A stretch of DNA of 64,000 nt from Candidatus Poribacteria bacterium (lineage in GTDB: Bacteria > Poribacteria > WGA-4E > PCPOR2b), in NCBI GenBank assembly GCA_965208325.1, contig OZ242326.1:3488001-3552000 (forward strand), read 5' to 3'. Each line of letters begins with the position of its first letter. Positions within the stretch are counted from its first letter, which is position 1. Below are positions 33,001-39,000 of the stretch, in pieces. Position numbers: made by a program.

Positions 33001-36000
33001 CTCGACATACTCGACACTTATCCAAGTCCAGGTTGCAGCTTGTCCATGATCGCCGTGGCATAGGATTATATGACAGTGGCCGCGTGATACAGACCCAAAG
33101 CCTGGCGGATCTCTCCAATCCCAATCCTTCTTAAAACCGAGCACTTTTACATAATAGTCGATACTGGCTGGAACATTCTTGAAATTGAAGACGGGTATGA
33201 TACACGCAAACTTGGTTTCTGTCCTTTTCATTGCATCCGCACTCCGCCTTTCAAGAATTCCATTCAGTCAGAATTGTGTCCGCAAGTGTTGACCATTATG
33301 GCACAATTGGCCGTATTGTGTCAAACAGTATTCCCCACCCACTGGCATACGTAACAAACGCTTTAGTCTTCTTTCTCGCCTCGATTTCCCACTCAACAAA
33401 TTTCCCGCTGAATTTTTCGTAAAATCTGTGAACTTTTCATTTCCTTGCGGTGTCATTTAGAATGGAAGCTTACCAGATGACCTATCGCCCCGCCTTTCGC
33501 CGGTAATTCTGAAAAGCAATATCAAAATGTCCTGAACCTAAGTCGGTACTTTCTTAAGCTGATGAGCATTGATATTACAATCCGATGAACTTCTCATTGA
33601 TAAGATTCTTCAACGCGATGCGGAGGCGTTTGAAGTGCTTTGGGCACGATATAGCGCGTCCGTCCGCCAACACATCATACGCACCGTACAGGACGAAAGT
33701 GCGGCCGAGGATTTGGTTCAGGAAGCATTCTTGCGTCTATGGACATCCGCTGAACAGTGGGACGGACGCGGTAGTTTCAAGGGGTGGTTCTTCCGCATCG
33801 CTACAAATCTCGCTCTCAATTATCTGCGCGCGCTGCGGCGGCGGAAGCAACAGCCCCTCGAATTACCGCCGGATGATTTTGATGATGCGGACGAATCCGC
33901 GCCCGATCCGGATTGGATGATTGACACGTCAATACGTAGCCCCGACGCGATGTTAGTACAAGCCGAGCAGTCTAATTTGCTTTGGCGGCTTGTTGAAGAA
34001 CTCCCCGAAGATAAACGAGACGTGCTTCAGCTTGTATACCTGAAAGAGATGAATCTTCGCGACGTTGCCGCTGAGATTGGCGTCCCGGAAGGCACTGTAA
34101 AGTCGCGTTTACACTATTCGATTCGGCGCCTCGCTCAAGAATGGAAGGAGATTGCAGACGAAAACGAAGAATAGAGTAAGTGAGTAGGCGAGCGGAAGCG
34201 CAGCAAAGGCTATTTCTCGCCACGCATTACGCATTACGCATTACGTATTACGCATTACGTATTCCACATCACGATTCACACTACACGAAATTCCCAATGG
34301 GAGGAGGAGACCGCAATGTCACACAACGTCACCGCATTTTGGCACAAAGAATCTTTTGGCAAACTGATGGGCAATCGGTTGCCAGGGCTACTCGCCGAGC
34401 GATTACCGTTAGCTGGCTTCCATTTTGAATCTGTCAGTGCTTACACCGGTTGTATCAAAATCTCCCTCACGTCAACTGATGGCGACGTTGAAGTTGAATA
34501 CGCCGACATACCGCAGCCGGACGATGAAGGGATGTTCAAAATCGACGGAGAAAATTATGTAGTTGTTCCAACGGCTTCGACCCATAAACTTAAAAAGGCA
34601 AAAATAAGATGTGTTGGGGACCAACTATACAGTTATTTCAAAATGCGCTTGAAGGGTGCTTCCCTAGACCTGTCGTGGGAAGCAGCTTCTGTACGGTCAT
34701 GGCTCCCACTTGATGAATGGTCACAGCAATTTTTTCGCGACACATTTCACGCACAGAAACTACAGGAGACCAACTGGCTCGACAAGTATAGGCATCTTCG
34801 ACGGTTATACGTTCTGAACCGCGAGAAGGTGTTCACCCCCTCCCACTTCGGGCGGGCATGCCCTTTCGAGACGCCAGAGGGACCAAACATAGGTCGAATC
34901 CTTACGATTGCTAGGGGCGCCGAGATTCGCGGCGGAAAACTGGTCGTTGTTGATGAAAACCCAGAGGCAAACCTCGGCATAGCATCGGCAATGATCCCAT
35001 TTCTTGAACACAACGATCCTGCCCGGACAATGATGGGGGCTAACATGTTGTGTCAGTGGATGGCGCCTTCGTCTCCGGAGACAGCTCCACTACGCCAAGC
35101 CAAAGAGATTCCGAGGTTGGCTGCTGCTCCGGAGCCCGCACTTGTCCAAACGGGTTACGAACCGGATGTGCCTGACTTTTGGTGCGGTCGCAACCTATTG
35201 ACCGCTTTCATTTCATGGGGCGGCGATACCTTTGAAGACGGCATCGTGATAAGCCAGTCGTGCGCAGCGCGTCTGGATTTTCCTTACGCCGTTGAACCCG
35301 GCGATAAGATTGGCAACCGCCATGGAACGAAAGGGGTCGTTTCGCGCATCCTGCCTGACGATGAGATGCCGCACCTTGACGACGGTACACCGGTGGAACT
35401 TGTATTCAGTTTCGGTGGCTTACACGCGCTAATGAACGTCGGTCAATTACGAGAGGCGGTGATGGGGCGTATTGCACGATTGGAAAATAAGCCAGCAATC
35501 GTGACGCCATTCCACGCACCGAGTGCAGGCGAATTACGCGAACGCATCAAAAACGCAGGACTTCCCGAAGACGGCATGGAGATCCTCACACTTGGGCGAG
35601 ACGGTAAGAAGTTGGCAAGACCTAGCACAGTGGGTTGGGTTTACTGGGGACGTCTGGCTCACATTGCGTTAGATAAAATAAAAGCATCCGACTCAACCAA
35701 TATTGAAGACCATAGGTACTTCCAAACGCTCGGTGAACTTGAATACGATAGACTACGCAGCGCCTCAGTATTTGAAACATTGAGGGAACATTTTAACACA
35801 CGCGCCATGAATCGGACTGATGCGTATACGTTAGCGGAGCGCCTCGCAATAGGCGAAATTGAGCAGGCGGACCCACCGACGCCGATGTTCGCTAACCTCA
35901 CGAACCGGCTCTCGGCAGCAGGAATTCGGGTTGTATTCAGCGGCGGCAAGTTGACTTTTGGATTTGCGCCGCCGAATGGGAATACGCTCAAGCTTGCTCA

Positions 36001-39000
36001 GCCCGTCCCTCATCCGTGGTGCCGCGATCAATTCCTTGATGAGGTCGGTATCCGTGAAGACATCCCTGAATATCACGGACTTGCCGATGTTAACGCCAGG
36101 ACTGAACGGATGCTTGCGAGTCGTACACCGGCAAGTCTAACCCGCCAATCCCTCAAGCAGCTCCAAACGCGCGTGGCAGAATATGTCAATGCGCTCCTAA
36201 GTCCAACTGTCATGAACTTTAAGTCACGGAGCCTCTTCAGCGGACGCGCCGTCATTGCGCCGTCCGCAGAGTTGCGCGCTGATCAGGTCGGTATTCCGGT
36301 AGAGATGGCGTGGTCACTCTTTGGACATCATGTTACAAAGAGACTTGGTGGAGCAGAGGAAGTACGGCGGCGTAGTCAAGATGCAACACATGTCCTGGAT
36401 GAATTGATGGCGGGTTCGTGGGTAATTATGCTTCGTCCACCGGCACATACACTCACTAACCTTGTTGCGTTTCATCCGGTGCGGCACCCCGACCGCGTCA
36501 TCCGCGTGCACCCATTCGTGTGCGAGTTGATGAACGCCAATTTTGACGGCGATCAAGCAGCAGTCTTTCTCCCAATCACTGAAAGCGGACAACGCGAAGC
36601 CGGTGAACGGCTTTCCATCGCCGGGCATCTGAAATACGACCCAAGTTTATCCAAATTGCTGGCACCGACGCATGACGCGATGTGGGGATTGGCGCATTTA
36701 AGCCTCACCCCGGAAGGGCGCGGCGAAATCGCGGAGATTATCGGCACCGACATCCCCGCCCCACACGGTCTGGTTAGACAAGATTCGCTGGCAAAGTCAC
36801 TAGAAGCCATCCTCAAATGCGATGGAATAGACCGCACGATTGAAATAGCCGAACGTCTAATGCGGCGCGGGCTCGCAATTGCTAAGGAATCGGGTGCTTC
36901 CATGAGCGCATTCATCAGCAGCCCCGCCGGCAGTCCATCCGTCCCGGTAGATCCCGACGATGCACCCGCTTGGAACGCTTATGCTGAAGAGCTGGTCGAA
37001 TGGCTTGCCGCGTGTAACGACTTCGCAGACAACAACTTGGGACCGCACATCCTTGCGGCAAAAAGCCAACACGCACATAGTAGATTTCATCGAATCGCTT
37101 GTTGTGTCGGGGGGAGAGGTACGGTTTTGGACCTTCAAGGAAGAAATATCATCGTTCGCAACGGGTATAGCGACGGTTTAACACCCGAGGAACTTTACCC
37201 GCTTTCCGTCACTTCGCGGGAGGAGATTGTGCGGCTCAATTTGGAACGGCAACGGATAGAATTGGAATTGCGCAACGACAGTGAGCCGGCAGGATTCACC
37301 GTCCTAGTGCGTGCAATGCGTGCCAAACACCCAGGTTTCGTTTTCGCCCGAGCCGCTGCTACCGGCGAGACCGATCCGCTTACTGATGTGGACAGCCGTC
37401 TTTTCGTCGGGCTACCTGTATCAACGGAGGAGTGATACATTGTCGTGAACACAAGCAATATCCGTGATTCAGTCATTCATCAAACACTTCACTGCCGATT
37501 GAGCCGCCGGCATTCATCGCCAAATTGCCGCCGTCCATCGGAATTATCGCACCGGTAATCCATGAAGACTCGTCCGATGCGAGAAATACCGCCAGGCCGC
37601 GAATGTCGTCAGGGCGGCCGAATCGTCCCATTGGAATGCCGCTGAGGAACCGATCCTTAATTCGCGGATCAGCGTCGATGCGTTTCTGCAAATCTGGGTT
37701 TAATACTTGTGCGGGTAAAATCGCATTGACCCGCACACCGCGTCCCGACCATTCGGTGCTCAGTTCCCGTGTCATCTGGACAACCGCACCCATCGCCATG
37801 CTGTATGCGATGTGCCCGCGGCCCATACCCGTGATGCTCGCCAGAGAACCGAGACTTACGATGCTCCCACTTCCAGCGGCAAGCATCCGCCGACCGGCTT
37901 CCTGACAACAACAGAATCTGCCATAGACAAGGTTGCGCCAAGTCTGTTCAACGTCTTCTAACGAGATAACCTCCGGTTTTGCTCGGATCGCTTCGCCCGC
38001 GACATTACCTAGAAAATCGATCCGACCAAATTCCTCGTCCACTCGTGCAAACATGGCGCGAATTTGATCCGGATGCGATACGTCACAATCAACAGCGATG
38101 GCGCGGCGTCCCATCTCCCTGATTTCGCCAGCAGTCTTCACCGCACCAGCCAAGTCAATATCCGCAAGCATCAAGCCCGCACCCGCCTCTGCCAAAGCTA
38201 ACGACATCGCACGACCCATGCCGCTTGCCGCTCCCGATACAACTGCAACTCGTCCGGCAAGATTGAACATCTCCGTCATAATCCCCTCTCTGTTTTCATT
38301 TTAAATCCAATTACGCTCTCATAGTTGGTGACCGGGATTGAAGCCCTTCTATTTCGTGATGCCTTGGCGTGGATTCAACTCTTTAATCGCTAACACATTT
38401 TACACACTGCGCCAAGCGTGTCAAGATGAGAAAATCAGGATTAACACGAAAGACCGCAAGCAAACGTCATTAAGATTGGCGGCTGTTTTTACCTGTTGAC
38501 TCTTTCCTTTCCAATCAACGATACAAGTTTTTCTGCAACTGGAAAGTCCTTTCGAACTTCTCTGTCCGCTGCTTCTATCGTCTCTCGTAGGGCTCGATTT
38601 GCCTGAACGGCGCCGGCTCCATTGCTTTGCACCTGCTTGTCAATTAAGATTGTAATCGACGCCGCTTCGACAATTTCATGCCGCCGGCCGCACACGGTTC
38701 TCTGTTCAATTTAATCCCCGACAAGTGCGAATTTCACCGAATTAAACTATTTTCTTTCGCTCTCGGTCTATAAGTAACGCAAATTCAACTCAAACGCTTG
38801 GAGGACTTACTATGCACAACCCGTTTGACTGGTCCCTTAGACCAGCCGATCTGAATACATCAACGACGCAGGCGCTTCCACTTATGTCATTGGCAGAAAA
38901 CCTTATGAAAGAAGCAACGCTTAAGGCGTCCGGGCGGTCCGCGCTGACATTAGCCCGCGGCGATGAGCTTACGGTGGTATTGGCCGTACTCAAAGCCGGA

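What a model noticed while it worked through the whole genome (the two positions that open the first line are those of the whole stretch)
33635..37435. Single-chain beta-beta' RNA polymerase with its own sigma factor
g02874 (1039 aa) is one polypeptide that joins the catalytic double-psi barrels of the RNA polymerase beta and beta' subunits, and it sits right behind a private ECF-type sigma gene (g02873), an arrangement kept in seven bacterial phyla. I read the pair as a second, chromosomal, minimal sigma-dependent RNA polymerase (or a catalytically altered derivative: this genus has NANFDGD instead of NADFDGD) that works beside the normal rpoBC enzyme. A cellular single-chain multisubunit-type RNAP with a dedicated sigma has not been described and could become a compact orthogonal transcription tool.
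Evidence so far: Pfam Rpb2_3, Rpb2_6 (two pieces) and Rpb1_2 on one 1039-aa ORF; canonical rpoB/rpoC are separate genes g03234/g03233. Profile of 36 homologs vs PDB: positions ~300-520 match the C-terminal part of beta (E 1e-66), 561-815 match beta' ~270-570 with the active site (E 9e-48). AlphaFold2 pLDDT 86.6, pTM 0.82; the Foldseek PDB hits shown are all RNAP beta or beta' chains, best E 1e-20. The best 120 homologs (49-100% identity) are 990-1106 aa, carry the same Pfam domains and have no informative name. Active-site motif D[FY]DGD in 107 of 120, NFDGD in 10 (this genome and nearest kin), 3 not resolved; beta motif GDKxxNRHGxKG in 114 of 120. Of 46 related loci (Poribacteria, Chloroflexota, Armatimonad [...]
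(Added by a program. Inside this text positions count along the whole contig: contig position 3,488,001 is position 1 of the stretch shown here. "Call 12" and the like, gene names such as g00115 and contig names such as C1 are that model's own, and its searches are not shown. The text may have been shortened before it was handed on; [...] marks where a part breaks off. The agent that wrote the report below was given it as the finding of a first reader that could run no searches.)

Follow-up and report, generated by a model that had tools for sequence, protein, structure and literature searches.

The report
Sigma factor plus minimal fused RNA polymerase
A sponge-symbiont chromosome carries a small, self-promoted two-gene cassette, a private sigma factor followed by a stripped-down one-chain version of the bacterial RNA polymerase core, which I found described in no paper I could search and whose template is unknown.

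Summary
ORF 34316-37435 (+) encodes a 1039-aa protein that joins the beta and beta' catalytic barrels. An ECF sigma gene lies directly upstream. The normal rpoB and rpoC are separate genes about 425 kb away.

New here:
- The enzyme keeps both barrels, the clamp helices and the bridge helix. It lacks the lobes, flap, rudder and trigger loop.
- An ECF-type promoter, TGAAC-N16-GTGTC, precedes the sigma gene in 49 of 49 loci tested. Where the two genes are separated, the polymerase gene has its own copy.
- No other convincing copy exists in this genome or in the cassette flanks, so the recognisable regulon is the cassette itself.
- Sigma and polymerase are gained and lost together. They were not found in the phage, plasmid or viral collections searched.
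- This genome's copy has NANFDGD, and also Leu at the beta-R1106 equivalent, yet it evolves under purifying selection.

Best reading (0.42): a minimal sigma-dependent polymerase module, probably weakened in this genus. Binding of sigma to the fused protein stays untested because the complex prediction never ran. The main rival is that sigma works with the host core enzyme and the fused protein is its only product.

The parts
33429..33454 (+). ECF-type promoter of the cassette: -35 TGAAC (33429-33433), 16-nt spacer, -10 GTGTC (33450-33454, preceded by CG)
   Evidence: Sequence read. TGAAC-N16-GTGTC lies upstream of the sigma gene in 49 of 49 loci tested, and the spacing is always 16. It is the top position-weight-matrix site of the whole genome: 32.6 bits against 23.6 for the next. 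Function is inferred from conservation; no transcription start site is mapped.
33569..34174 (+). ECF sigma factor gene (201 aa if it starts at TTG 33569; the annotated start is GTG 33635)
   Evidence: Pfam Sigma70_r2 and r4/r4_2 and NCBIfam TIGR02937. In an alignment of 27 orthologs the mean column identity is 62%. D6 and L9 are invariant, and the linker carries a conserved P-x-W-M-I-D ... G-P motif (P114, W116, D119, P125).
34222..34263 (+). Six tandem heptads (ACGCATT or ACGTATT) in the 141-nt spacer between sigma and polymerase; role unknown and not conserved in other lineages
   Evidence: Sequence read. In other loci the spacer ranges from an overlap to several hundred bases.
34316..37435 (+). 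Single-chain beta-beta' polymerase gene (1039 aa)
34316..35914 (+). Beta-derived half (aa 1 to about 533): N-terminal sheet, fork region and beta double-psi barrel. The lobes (E. coli beta about 160-445) and the flap plus SI2 (about 830-1057) are deleted.
   Evidence: hhalign against E. coli beta: residues 89-533 match beta 445-1342, E 3.1e-43, and the flap stretch is bridged by about 5 residues at 318-323. VIA-align places model 1-548 across whole Rpb2/beta chains with Z about 28-30. A weak match of 57-123 to beta about 107-175 appears.
35300..35335 (+). GDKIGNRHGTKG (aa 329-340), the beta-barrel motif carrying the lysines that match E. coli beta K1065 and K1073
   Evidence: Among the other 39 sequences of the alignment K331 is kept in 38 and K339 in 37.
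35429..35431 (+). Codon for Leu372, where 41 of the 43 aligned family members have Arg (equivalent to E. coli beta R1106, a contact of the NTP gamma-phosphate)
   Evidence: One search gives the column counts: the four genus members read L, R, R, R; the other 39 are R in 38 and H in 1. Equivalence comes from the hhalign. The role of R1106 comes from passages of PMC13198411.
36059..36196 (+). Coiled coil (aa 582-627) equivalent to the beta' clamp helices (E. coli beta' 264-310), the canonical docking site of sigma region 2
   Evidence: hhalign against E. coli beta'. The model has helices at 584-601 and 606-627. That sigma region 2 docks here is textbook knowledge, not tested for this protein.
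36533..36553 (+). Active-site motif NANFDGD (aa 740-746). The first Asp of the metal-binding triad (E. coli beta' D460) is Asn742.
   Evidence: D460 coordinates both Mg ions (PMC13198411 passages).
37184..37279 (+). Bridge helix (aa 957-988). Only 51 residues follow it, so there is no room for a trigger loop or jaw.
   Evidence: The model has a helix at 957-988. hhalign runs to beta' 790 at the start of the bridge helix. The C-terminal 50 residues are the most family-specific conserved block.

Best explanation
This is a self-contained two-gene transcription module. An ECF sigma recognises the promoter TGAAC-N16-GTGTC in front of the module. The downstream gene encodes a heavily reduced bacterial RNA polymerase core in one chain. 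It keeps both catalytic barrels, the fork, the bridge helix and the clamp helices. It has lost the lobes, flap, beta' N-terminus, rudder, trigger loop and jaw. I infer that sigma region 2 docks on the retained clamp helices, which would make a two-protein holoenzyme that initiates at this promoter. That would close a positive loop on its own genes and perhaps reach templates not yet recognised. In most of the family the catalytic residues are intact. In this genus the first catalytic Asp is Asn, and in this genome the NTP-contacting Arg is also Leu, so this copy is probably slow or altered rather than dead. Shown: the architecture, the promoter conservation, the co-inheritance and the purifying selection. 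Inferred: catalysis, sigma binding and the template.
For: Architecture: Pfam and NCBIfam matches; hhalign to E. coli beta (E 3.1e-43) and beta' (E 1.4e-27); a confident model with pLDDT 88.7 that matches RNAP beta chains. The clamp helices survive in an enzyme that has shed most peripheral parts. Catalytic motifs are conserved across the family: D[FYH]DGD in 110 of 120 and GDKxxNRHGxKG in 111 of 120. Lack of a trigger loop need not prevent RNA synthesis, because YonO lacks trigger-loop homology yet is reported to make phosphodiester bonds as efficiently as multisubunit RNAP (PMC5467207 passages). Coupling of the two genes: sigma is adjacent in 55 of 61 testable loci, 4 more have it 0.8-1.7 kb upstream, and 2 lack it. 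Within the phylum the sigma ortholog is in 32 of 176 genomes and the polymerase in 32 of 176, with 31 shared. The one sigma without a polymerase is a pseudogene with 2 in-frame stops. The two gene trees share 18 of 48 splits, against a mean of 0.18 after label shuffling. The sigma is unusually conserved across phyla, including a linker motif, which fits a partner that travels with it. The promoter is present in 49 of 49 loci, and the polymerase gene has its own copy whenever the two genes are apart (L104, L141/L144, L191/L192). dN/dS within the NANFDGD genus is 0.18-0.27 for the polymerase and 0.17-0.22 for sigma.
Against: No binding, activity or expression data exist. The usual anchors of sigma region 4, the beta flap and the beta' N-terminal region, are deleted. 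Yet the promoter keeps a rigid 16-nt spacer of ordinary ECF geometry, which the host core enzyme would satisfy without further assumption. The only recognisable promoter copies serve the two genes themselves. In this genome there are 7 exact matches against 9 expected by chance, and the next-best matrix site is 9 bits weaker with no ORF behind it. Extra strict-pattern sites in 5 related genomes all lie inside long open frames. No extra copies occur in up to 9 kb of flank. A sigma-dependent enzyme would thus have no known output. The clamp helices are only averagely conserved, 0.61 against 0.68 overall. The three beta' positions I recall as sigma70 contacts (R275, E295, A302) are V, S and R here. 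This genome's copy has N742 and L372 at metal-binding and NTP-binding positions.
Confidence: 0.42

Rival explanations
1. The sigma works only with the host's normal core RNA polymerase, as an ordinary autoregulated ECF sigma. The fused protein is simply its single regulated product. It would be a sigma-independent nucleotide polymerase, for example one that starts on nicks, single strands, RNA templates or primers, and its job is unrelated to promoter recognition.
For: The promoter has canonical ECF -35/-10 architecture with an invariant 16-nt spacer, which fits sigma held on a core enzyme that has a flap. The fused protein lacks the flap and the beta' N-terminus. The regulon seems to consist only of the sigma and polymerase genes, as expected if the polymerase is the output. 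Sigma region 2 looks like that of ordinary ECFs. Other single-chain two-barrel enzymes such as YonO have no known sigma; its paper leaves open whether it needs extra factors (PMC5467207 passages).
Against: It does not explain why a strongly minimised enzyme keeps the clamp helices. It does not explain why the sigma, linker included, stays about 50% identical across phyla with different host cores. The cassette has no anti-sigma or sensor gene, so what would switch such a sigma on is unclear.
Confidence: 0.3
2. The fused protein acts mainly as a regulator. As a mimic of the polymerase core it captures the sigma on its clamp helices and sits in the place where an anti-sigma gene normally lies. 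Catalysis would be secondary or lost, at least in this genus.
For: The gene occupies the position usually held by the anti-sigma gene, and no anti-sigma is present. The clamp helices are retained. In this genus the first catalytic Asp is Asn, and this genome also has R372L, yet both genes stay under purifying selection.
Against: Across the family the catalytic triad, the lysine motif and the bridge helix are strongly conserved, which a mere decoy would not need. The beta barrel is the most conserved segment, 0.77-0.84. Only 8 of 283 conserved columns differ in this genus. A sigma whose only targets are itself and its own trap would have no output.
Confidence: 0.12
3. The cassette is a selfish or decaying remnant of a mobile element's transcription module and has no present function for this cell.
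For: The distribution is patchy: 32 of 176 genomes in the phylum, 2 of 401 Chloroflexota sampled and 1 of 135 Hydrogenedentota. It is absent from complete genomes of the same genus, for example G043 and G054. The flanks are unrelated between lineages. Several copies are broken: G049 split, L118, L191/L192, and the sigma pseudogene in G056. An IS200-type transposase lies next to it in L141/L144. The module's GC content is in the 93rd percentile of the genome.
Against: dN/dS of 0.17-0.27 within the genus shows selection on both genes. No member was found in 72,556 plasmid records, 50,697 phage records or IMG/VR. No integrase, replication or transfer genes recur beside it. No PADLOC match.
Confidence: 0.08

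Closest known systems
Bacterial multisubunit RNA polymerase core (beta and beta', rpoB/rpoC) with ECF sigma holoenzymes
   Same: Clear sequence homology to bacterial beta and beta'. It has the same two double-psi barrels, lysine motif, DxDGD motif, bridge helix and clamp helices. It sits beside a group-4 (ECF) sigma with a typical -35 GAAC-type promoter.
   Different: One 1039-aa chain instead of about 2,700 aa in two chains plus alpha2 and omega. Lobes, flap, beta' residues 1 to about 242, rudder, trigger loop and jaw are missing. It scores far below every NCBIfam rpoB/rpoC cut-off, for example 161.7 bits against 801. It is accessory, not universal.
Orf6 of the yeast killer plasmid pGKL2 (Rpb2::Rpb1 fusion, 982 aa; PMC2919709, passages read)
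   Same: The same order, beta-like then beta'-like, in one chain of about 1000 aa that has lost about half of the parental sequence.
   Different: Orf6 is described as derived from eukaryotic Rpb2/Rpb1 on a cytoplasmic linear plasmid, with no sigma. Killer-plasmid enzymes are said to keep the flap-type insert in the beta barrel (PMC7824862 passages), which is absent here. I made no direct sequence comparison with Orf6.
YonO of Bacillus prophage SPbeta and YonO-like single-chain two-barrel RNAPs (PMC5467207, PMC2919709; passages read)
   Same: A single polypeptide of about 100 kDa with both barrels, no trigger-loop homology and no flap insert.
   Different: YonO is described as having only very distant homology to multisubunit RNAPs, whereas this protein hits Pfam Rpb2_6 at E 7e-39. 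YonO is prophage-encoded, whereas this family was not found in the phage or viral collections. No dedicated sigma is known for YonO. I made no direct comparison with a YonO sequence.
Natural full-length rpoB-rpoC fusions (NCBIfam NF007172 and NF011417, 'subunit beta/beta'', about 2,840-2,890 aa; recalled from Helicobacter and Wolbachia)
   Same: Beta and beta' joined in that order in a bacterial chromosome.
   Different: Those are the cell's only, complete polymerase. Here the fusion is a second, reduced copy and scores 137-153 bits against cut-offs of 4,632-5,372.

Membership tests
Two-double-psi-barrel (multisubunit-type) RNA polymerase catalytic core | Beta-type barrel with the conserved lysine/arginine motif (E. 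coli K1065, R1069, H1070, K1073) | tested here: met
   GDKIGNRHGTKG at 329-340, aligned to E. coli 1063-1074. The motif occurs in 111 of 120 homologs.
Two-double-psi-barrel (multisubunit-type) RNA polymerase catalytic core | Beta'-type barrel with the Asp triad NADFDGD that holds the catalytic Mg ions | tested here: not met
   The window copy has NANFDGD: N742 stands at the D460 position, while D744 and D746 are kept. The family at large meets the feature, with D[FYH]DGD in 110 of 120.
Two-double-psi-barrel (multisubunit-type) RNA polymerase catalytic core | Bridge helix spanning the cleft | tested here: met
   The model has a helix at 957-988. hhalign reaches the start of the E. coli bridge helix.
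Two-double-psi-barrel (multisubunit-type) RNA polymerase catalytic core | Trigger loop | tested here: not met
   Only 51 residues follow the bridge helix, and no match to beta' beyond residue 790 was found.
Cellular bacterial RNAP core (rpoB + rpoC equivalogs) | Full-length beta and beta' with flap, lobes and clamp, reaching the NCBIfam equivalog cut-offs | tested here: not met
   TIGR02013 scores 161.7 bits against 801; TIGR02386 scores 73.3 bits against 963.5. The flap and lobes are deleted.
ECF (group 4) sigma-70 family (for the upstream gene) | Only regions 2 and 4, matching the ECF models | tested here: met
   Sigma70_r2, Sigma70_r4_2 and Sigma70_ECF; TIGR02937 at 119.7 bits against 42.9.
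ECF (group 4) sigma-70 family (for the upstream gene) | Own gene preceded by a conserved GAAC-type -35 and a short -10 (autoregulation) | tested here: met
   TGAAC-N16-GTGTC in 49 of 49 loci. Use of the promoter by this sigma is inferred, not measured.
ECF (group 4) sigma-70 family (for the upstream gene) | Co-transcribed cognate anti-sigma factor | tested here: not met
   The downstream gene is the polymerase. No other conserved neighbour was found.
YonO-like single-chain RNAPs | Only a handful of active-site residues shared with multisubunit RNAPs; prophage or mobile-element context | tested here: not met
   Extended homology to beta and beta'. No relative in the phage, plasmid or IMG/VR collections. 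No YonO sequence was compared directly.
Killer-plasmid Orf6-type Rpb2::Rpb1 fusion | Eukaryote-derived fusion on a linear cytoplasmic plasmid, keeping the flap insert | tested here: inconclusive
   The order and size agree. The best sequence matches here are bacterial beta and beta' and the flap is absent. No Orf6 sequence was at hand for a direct test.
Known anti-phage defence systems (PADLOC-DB 2.0) | Match to a model of a known or candidate defence protein | tested here: not met
   0 families for either protein at E <= 0.01.

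The most novel reading that the evidence does not exclude
The cassette is an autonomous minimal transcription system made of a promoter, its sigma and a one-chain polymerase that the sigma loads. 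It would transcribe itself independently of the cell's rpoBC enzyme, as a natural 'autogene' loop of the multisubunit-RNAP lineage, and it moves between phyla as a unit. It would be the smallest known sigma-dependent polymerase. It would also show that promoter-specific initiation needs neither flap, lobes, trigger loop, alpha nor omega.
Probability: 0.33. Interest if true: 0.92.

Novelty: new variant of a known kind. Interest (0 to 1): 0.78.

Why it matters
If the fused protein is active and sigma-dependent, it defines the minimal set of RNA polymerase parts needed for promoter-specific transcription. It would then be a compact, possibly orthogonal, two-protein expression system about one third the mass of the bacterial holoenzyme. 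It also poses a clean biological puzzle. The sigma-polymerase pair has itself as its only recognisable promoter target. It is kept under selection in sponge symbionts and scattered in other phyla. In one genus the catalytic site is drifting (Asp to Asn, and Arg to Leu in this genome) while the rest of the protein is preserved. Each of the competing readings can be tested with standard biochemistry on two small genes.

Tried and rejected
- Complex prediction. Each time the queue was full or the machine gave no usable answer, and the cap was reported as used. There is no verdict and no evidence either way.
- First locus scan of genome contigs. The patterns chosen were shared with the canonical rpoB/rpoC, so L001-L079 are ordinary rpoBC loci and useless here. 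I replaced this with the genome search and with a metagenome scan using the family-specific C-terminus.
- Expression. No RNA holder was listed among the public runs.
- Other promoter targets. Exact matches in the genome are at chance level. The second-best matrix site has no ORF behind it. The extra strict matches in 5 related genomes all lie inside long open frames. This does not exclude degenerate or sigma-independent targets.
- Mobile-element origin. No member with 80% or more coverage in plasmids or phages. 0 of 111 pattern hits were confirmed in IMG/VR. BFVD structural hits are weaker than the bacterial ones, best E 2.9e-16, and come from giant-virus RNAP subunits.
- Defence system. No PADLOC match.
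- Clamp-helix conservation as a proxy for a binding site. It is average and therefore uninformative.
- Sigma-70-type promoter and terminator scan of the cassette. Counts were at or below the shuffle expectation.
- Literature. Seven full-text searches found no description of a sigma-linked minimal beta-beta' fusion. The ECF reclassification paper PMC7826278 had 0 hits for Rpb, rpoB, PF00562, PF00623 or Poribacteria in its main text and in its one held supplementary file. Iyer and Aravind 2012 (J Struct Biol 179:299), the paper most likely to mention such a protein, is not held and was not read. Subscription journals are outside the library.
- Earlier notes of this scan. Three look-ups returned nothing.
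- Taxon names. Cluster look-up added only one Ktedonobacteraceae name, so 'seven phyla' stays unverified.

Full report
**Observation**

The window holds two co-directional ORFs. One is a sigma ORF at 33569 (TTG) or 33635 (GTG, the annotated start) to 34174. The other is a 1039-aa ORF at 34316-37435. The long protein matches Pfam Rpb2_3, Rpb2_6 and Rpb1_2 above their cut-offs. It also matches NCBIfam rpoB and rpoC models, but far below their equivalog cut-offs. The short protein is an ECF sigma by Sigma70_r2, Sigma70_r4_2 and TIGR02937. The genome is one 4.71-Mb contig. Its ordinary rpoB and rpoC lie about 425 kb away as separate 1313-aa and 1433-aa open frames.

**Anatomy of the fused protein**

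- Profile alignment to E. coli beta places residues 89-533 on beta 445-1342 (E 3.1e-43).
- The flap and SI2 stretch (about beta 830-1057) is bridged by about five residues. The lobes (about beta 160-445) have no counterpart.
- A weak match of residues 57-123 to the conserved N-terminal strand region of beta appears.
- VIA-align lays model residues 1-548 across whole beta/Rpb2 chains with Z about 28-30.
- Alignment to E. coli beta' places residues 563-978 on beta' 243-790 (E 1.4e-27).
- The clamp helices (beta' 264-310, here 582-627) are kept. The stretch about 310-335 (rudder, part of switch 2) is deleted.
- The barrel with the metal motif is kept. The alignment ends at the start of the bridge helix.
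- The AlphaFold2 model (pLDDT 88.7, pTM 0.84) shows the coiled coil at 584-627 and a 32-residue helix at 957-988.
- Only 51 residues follow that helix, so a trigger loop and jaw cannot be present.
- Beta' residues 1 to about 242 are replaced by about 29 residues.
- All 50 Foldseek PDB hits shown are RNAP beta chains (best E 1.9e-22). Viral structures match less well (best E 2.9e-16).

**Active site**

- Among the 120 best homologs the metal motif is DFDGD in 107, DYDGD in 2, DHDGD in 1 and NFDGD in 10.
- One apparent eleventh NFDGD was a chance site elsewhere in that protein.
- GDKxxNRHGxKG is present in 111 of 120.
- All four genomes of the window's genus have Asn at the position of E. coli beta' D460. 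That residue coordinates both Mg ions in the Michaelis complex (PMC13198411, passages).
- The window's copy alone also has Leu372, where 41 of the 43 aligned sequences have Arg.
- That position aligns with beta R1106, which contacts the NTP gamma-phosphate (same paper).
- Otherwise the genus departs from the family at only 8 of 283 conserved columns.
- dN/dS between the four genomes is 0.18-0.27 for the polymerase and 0.17-0.22 for the sigma.
- The genes are therefore maintained, but catalysis in this copy is likely weakened or altered.

**The pair is a unit**

Within the window's phylum the polymerase is in 32 of 176 genomes. By family the counts are 21/28, 9/11 and 1/8, and 0/112 in the largest family. 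It is missing from complete genomes of a genus that otherwise has it. The sigma ortholog is also in 32 of 176 genomes, all at E <= 5e-69, with nothing between that value and the 1e-35 limit. Thirty-one genomes have both. One (G010, 79% complete) shows only a polymerase fragment. One (G056) has only the promoter and a sigma with two in-frame stops, and no polymerase in the 7.4 kb downstream.

I then examined 112 module loci, 32 from genomes and 80 from a metagenome scan with the family-specific C-terminus. Of these, 61 hold the polymerase N-terminus and at least 700 bp upstream:
- 55 have the sigma within 400 bp on the same strand.
- 4 have it 792-1688 bp upstream.
- 2 (L141 and L144, near-identical) have none, and an IS200-type transposase sits nearby.

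Of the other 51 loci, 43 lack the N-terminus. Six short ones show the sigma C-terminus and 2 show nothing. Several loci are near-duplicates, so these are not 61 independent events.

The sigma and polymerase trees (51 distinct loci) share 18 of 48 splits, against a mean of 0.18 (maximum 2) in 200 label shuffles. Pairwise identities correlate at r = 0.93. Flanking genes are unrelated between lineages.

Outside the phylum the module is rare: 2 of 401 sampled Chloroflexota and 1 of 135 Hydrogenedentota. All three of those loci have the sigma, and where checked the promoter. A profile of the C-terminal 155 positions finds 292 clusters (50% identity) at E <= 1e-10 among 1.84 billion representatives. 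The match is always at the C-terminus, and full-length members are 979-1101 aa.

**A conserved promoter and a closed loop**

- Upstream of the sigma gene, all 49 loci tested carry TGAAC, exactly 16 nt, then GTGTC, usually CGGTGTC.
- After collapsing sites more than 80% alike, 19 distinct sites remain.
- In the window the motif is at 33429-33454, about 114 nt before TTG 33569. In most other lineages it lies 15-40 nt before the start.
- Where the sigma and polymerase genes have been separated, the polymerase gene has its own copy just upstream. This holds for L104, L141/L144 and L191/L192.
- In 800 kb of module loci there are 67 sites of at least 20 bits. Only two loci have two, and none lies in front of any other gene.
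- In the window's genome the exact motif occurs 7 times against 9 expected.
- The cassette promoter scores 32.6 bits. The runner-up scores 23.6 bits and has no ORF behind it.
- In five related complete genomes a stricter pattern finds the cassette site plus 0-6 others, all inside long open frames.

The recognisable regulon is thus the sigma and the polymerase themselves.

**Interpretation**

The sequence shows a secondarily reduced bacterial RNAP core whose gene is always driven by its private sigma's promoter. Three observations favour a direct partnership:
- The clamp helices are among the few peripheral parts that were kept.
- The sigma, including a normally variable linker, is about 50% identical across phyla.
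- The sigma decays once the polymerase is gone.

Three observations favour the rival, that the sigma works with the host core and the fused enzyme is its only product:
- The flap and the beta' N-terminus, which position sigma region 4, are missing.
- The promoter nevertheless has rigid, ordinary ECF geometry.
- A sigma-dependent enzyme would have no target but itself.

I could not run the complex prediction, so this remains open. I put 0.42 on the sigma-dependent minimal polymerase. I put 0.30 on 'host core reads the promoter and the fused enzyme works without sigma'. I put 0.12 on a core-mimic regulator and 0.08 on a functionless remnant.

**Comparison with what is known**

The closest described things are:
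- The killer-plasmid Orf6 Rpb2::Rpb1 fusion (PMC2919709, passages).
- YonO (PMC5467207, passages).
- Full-length rpoBC fusions (NCBIfam models).

None of these has a dedicated sigma. Cellular and killer-plasmid beta barrels are described as all keeping the flap insert (PMC7824862, passages), which this protein lacks. The ESM Atlas lists further, longer clusters that carry both Rpb2_6 and Rpb1_2 (1221-1787 aa), so single-chain fusions may be more varied than the literature I could read suggests.

Seven full-text searches, and a term search of the ECF reclassification paper and its held supplement, found no description of this module. Iyer and Aravind 2012 could not be read.

Noticed in passing
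window 34222-34263: Six tandem 7-nt units (ACGCATT or ACGTATT) sit in the spacer between the sigma and polymerase genes. Some other lineages (L119, L124, L145) show different 7-8-nt periodic repeats just upstream of the -35 element.
   Followed up: no
L102 (G049), L118, L191/L192, L213 (G056), L214 (G025): Several copies look damaged or rearranged. The polymerase is split into two ORFs in G049 and in L191/L192. L118 has a frameshifted sigma and a split polymerase, with a phosphorylase gene in between. G056 has a sigma pseudogene and no polymerase. G025 has a roughly 3-kb insertion between the two genes.
   Followed up: partly
L175:265-1293: This short metagenome contig has two promoter copies. 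A sigma-N-terminus-like stretch runs directly into a polymerase C-terminal fragment, which may be an internal deletion of the cassette.
   Followed up: no
L141:4107-4538 and L144:1161-1592: An IS200-like Y1 transposase gene lies about 600 bp upstream of the only polymerase genes that lack an adjacent sigma. The polymerase there still has the promoter.
   Followed up: partly
not in the window (ESM Atlas clusters): Further clusters carry both Rpb2_6 and Rpb1_2 on single proteins of 1221-1787 aa. Some also have Rpb1_5, and one is auto-named with an inorganic pyrophosphatase part. No taxa are recorded. They may be other kinds of single-chain polymerases.
   Followed up: no
window 39393-40553 (-) and 27897-31448 (-): An ankyrin-repeat protein (386 aa) lies downstream and an SMC chromosome-segregation protein (1183 aa) lies upstream. 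DNA runs holding the cassette are labelled sponge metagenome.
   Followed up: no
window 33569-33635: The annotated GTG start of the sigma gene (33635) cuts off 22 residues that include positions invariant across phyla. In two genomes of the same genus the corresponding first codon is not an obvious start codon, so the true start in this genus is uncertain.
   Followed up: partly
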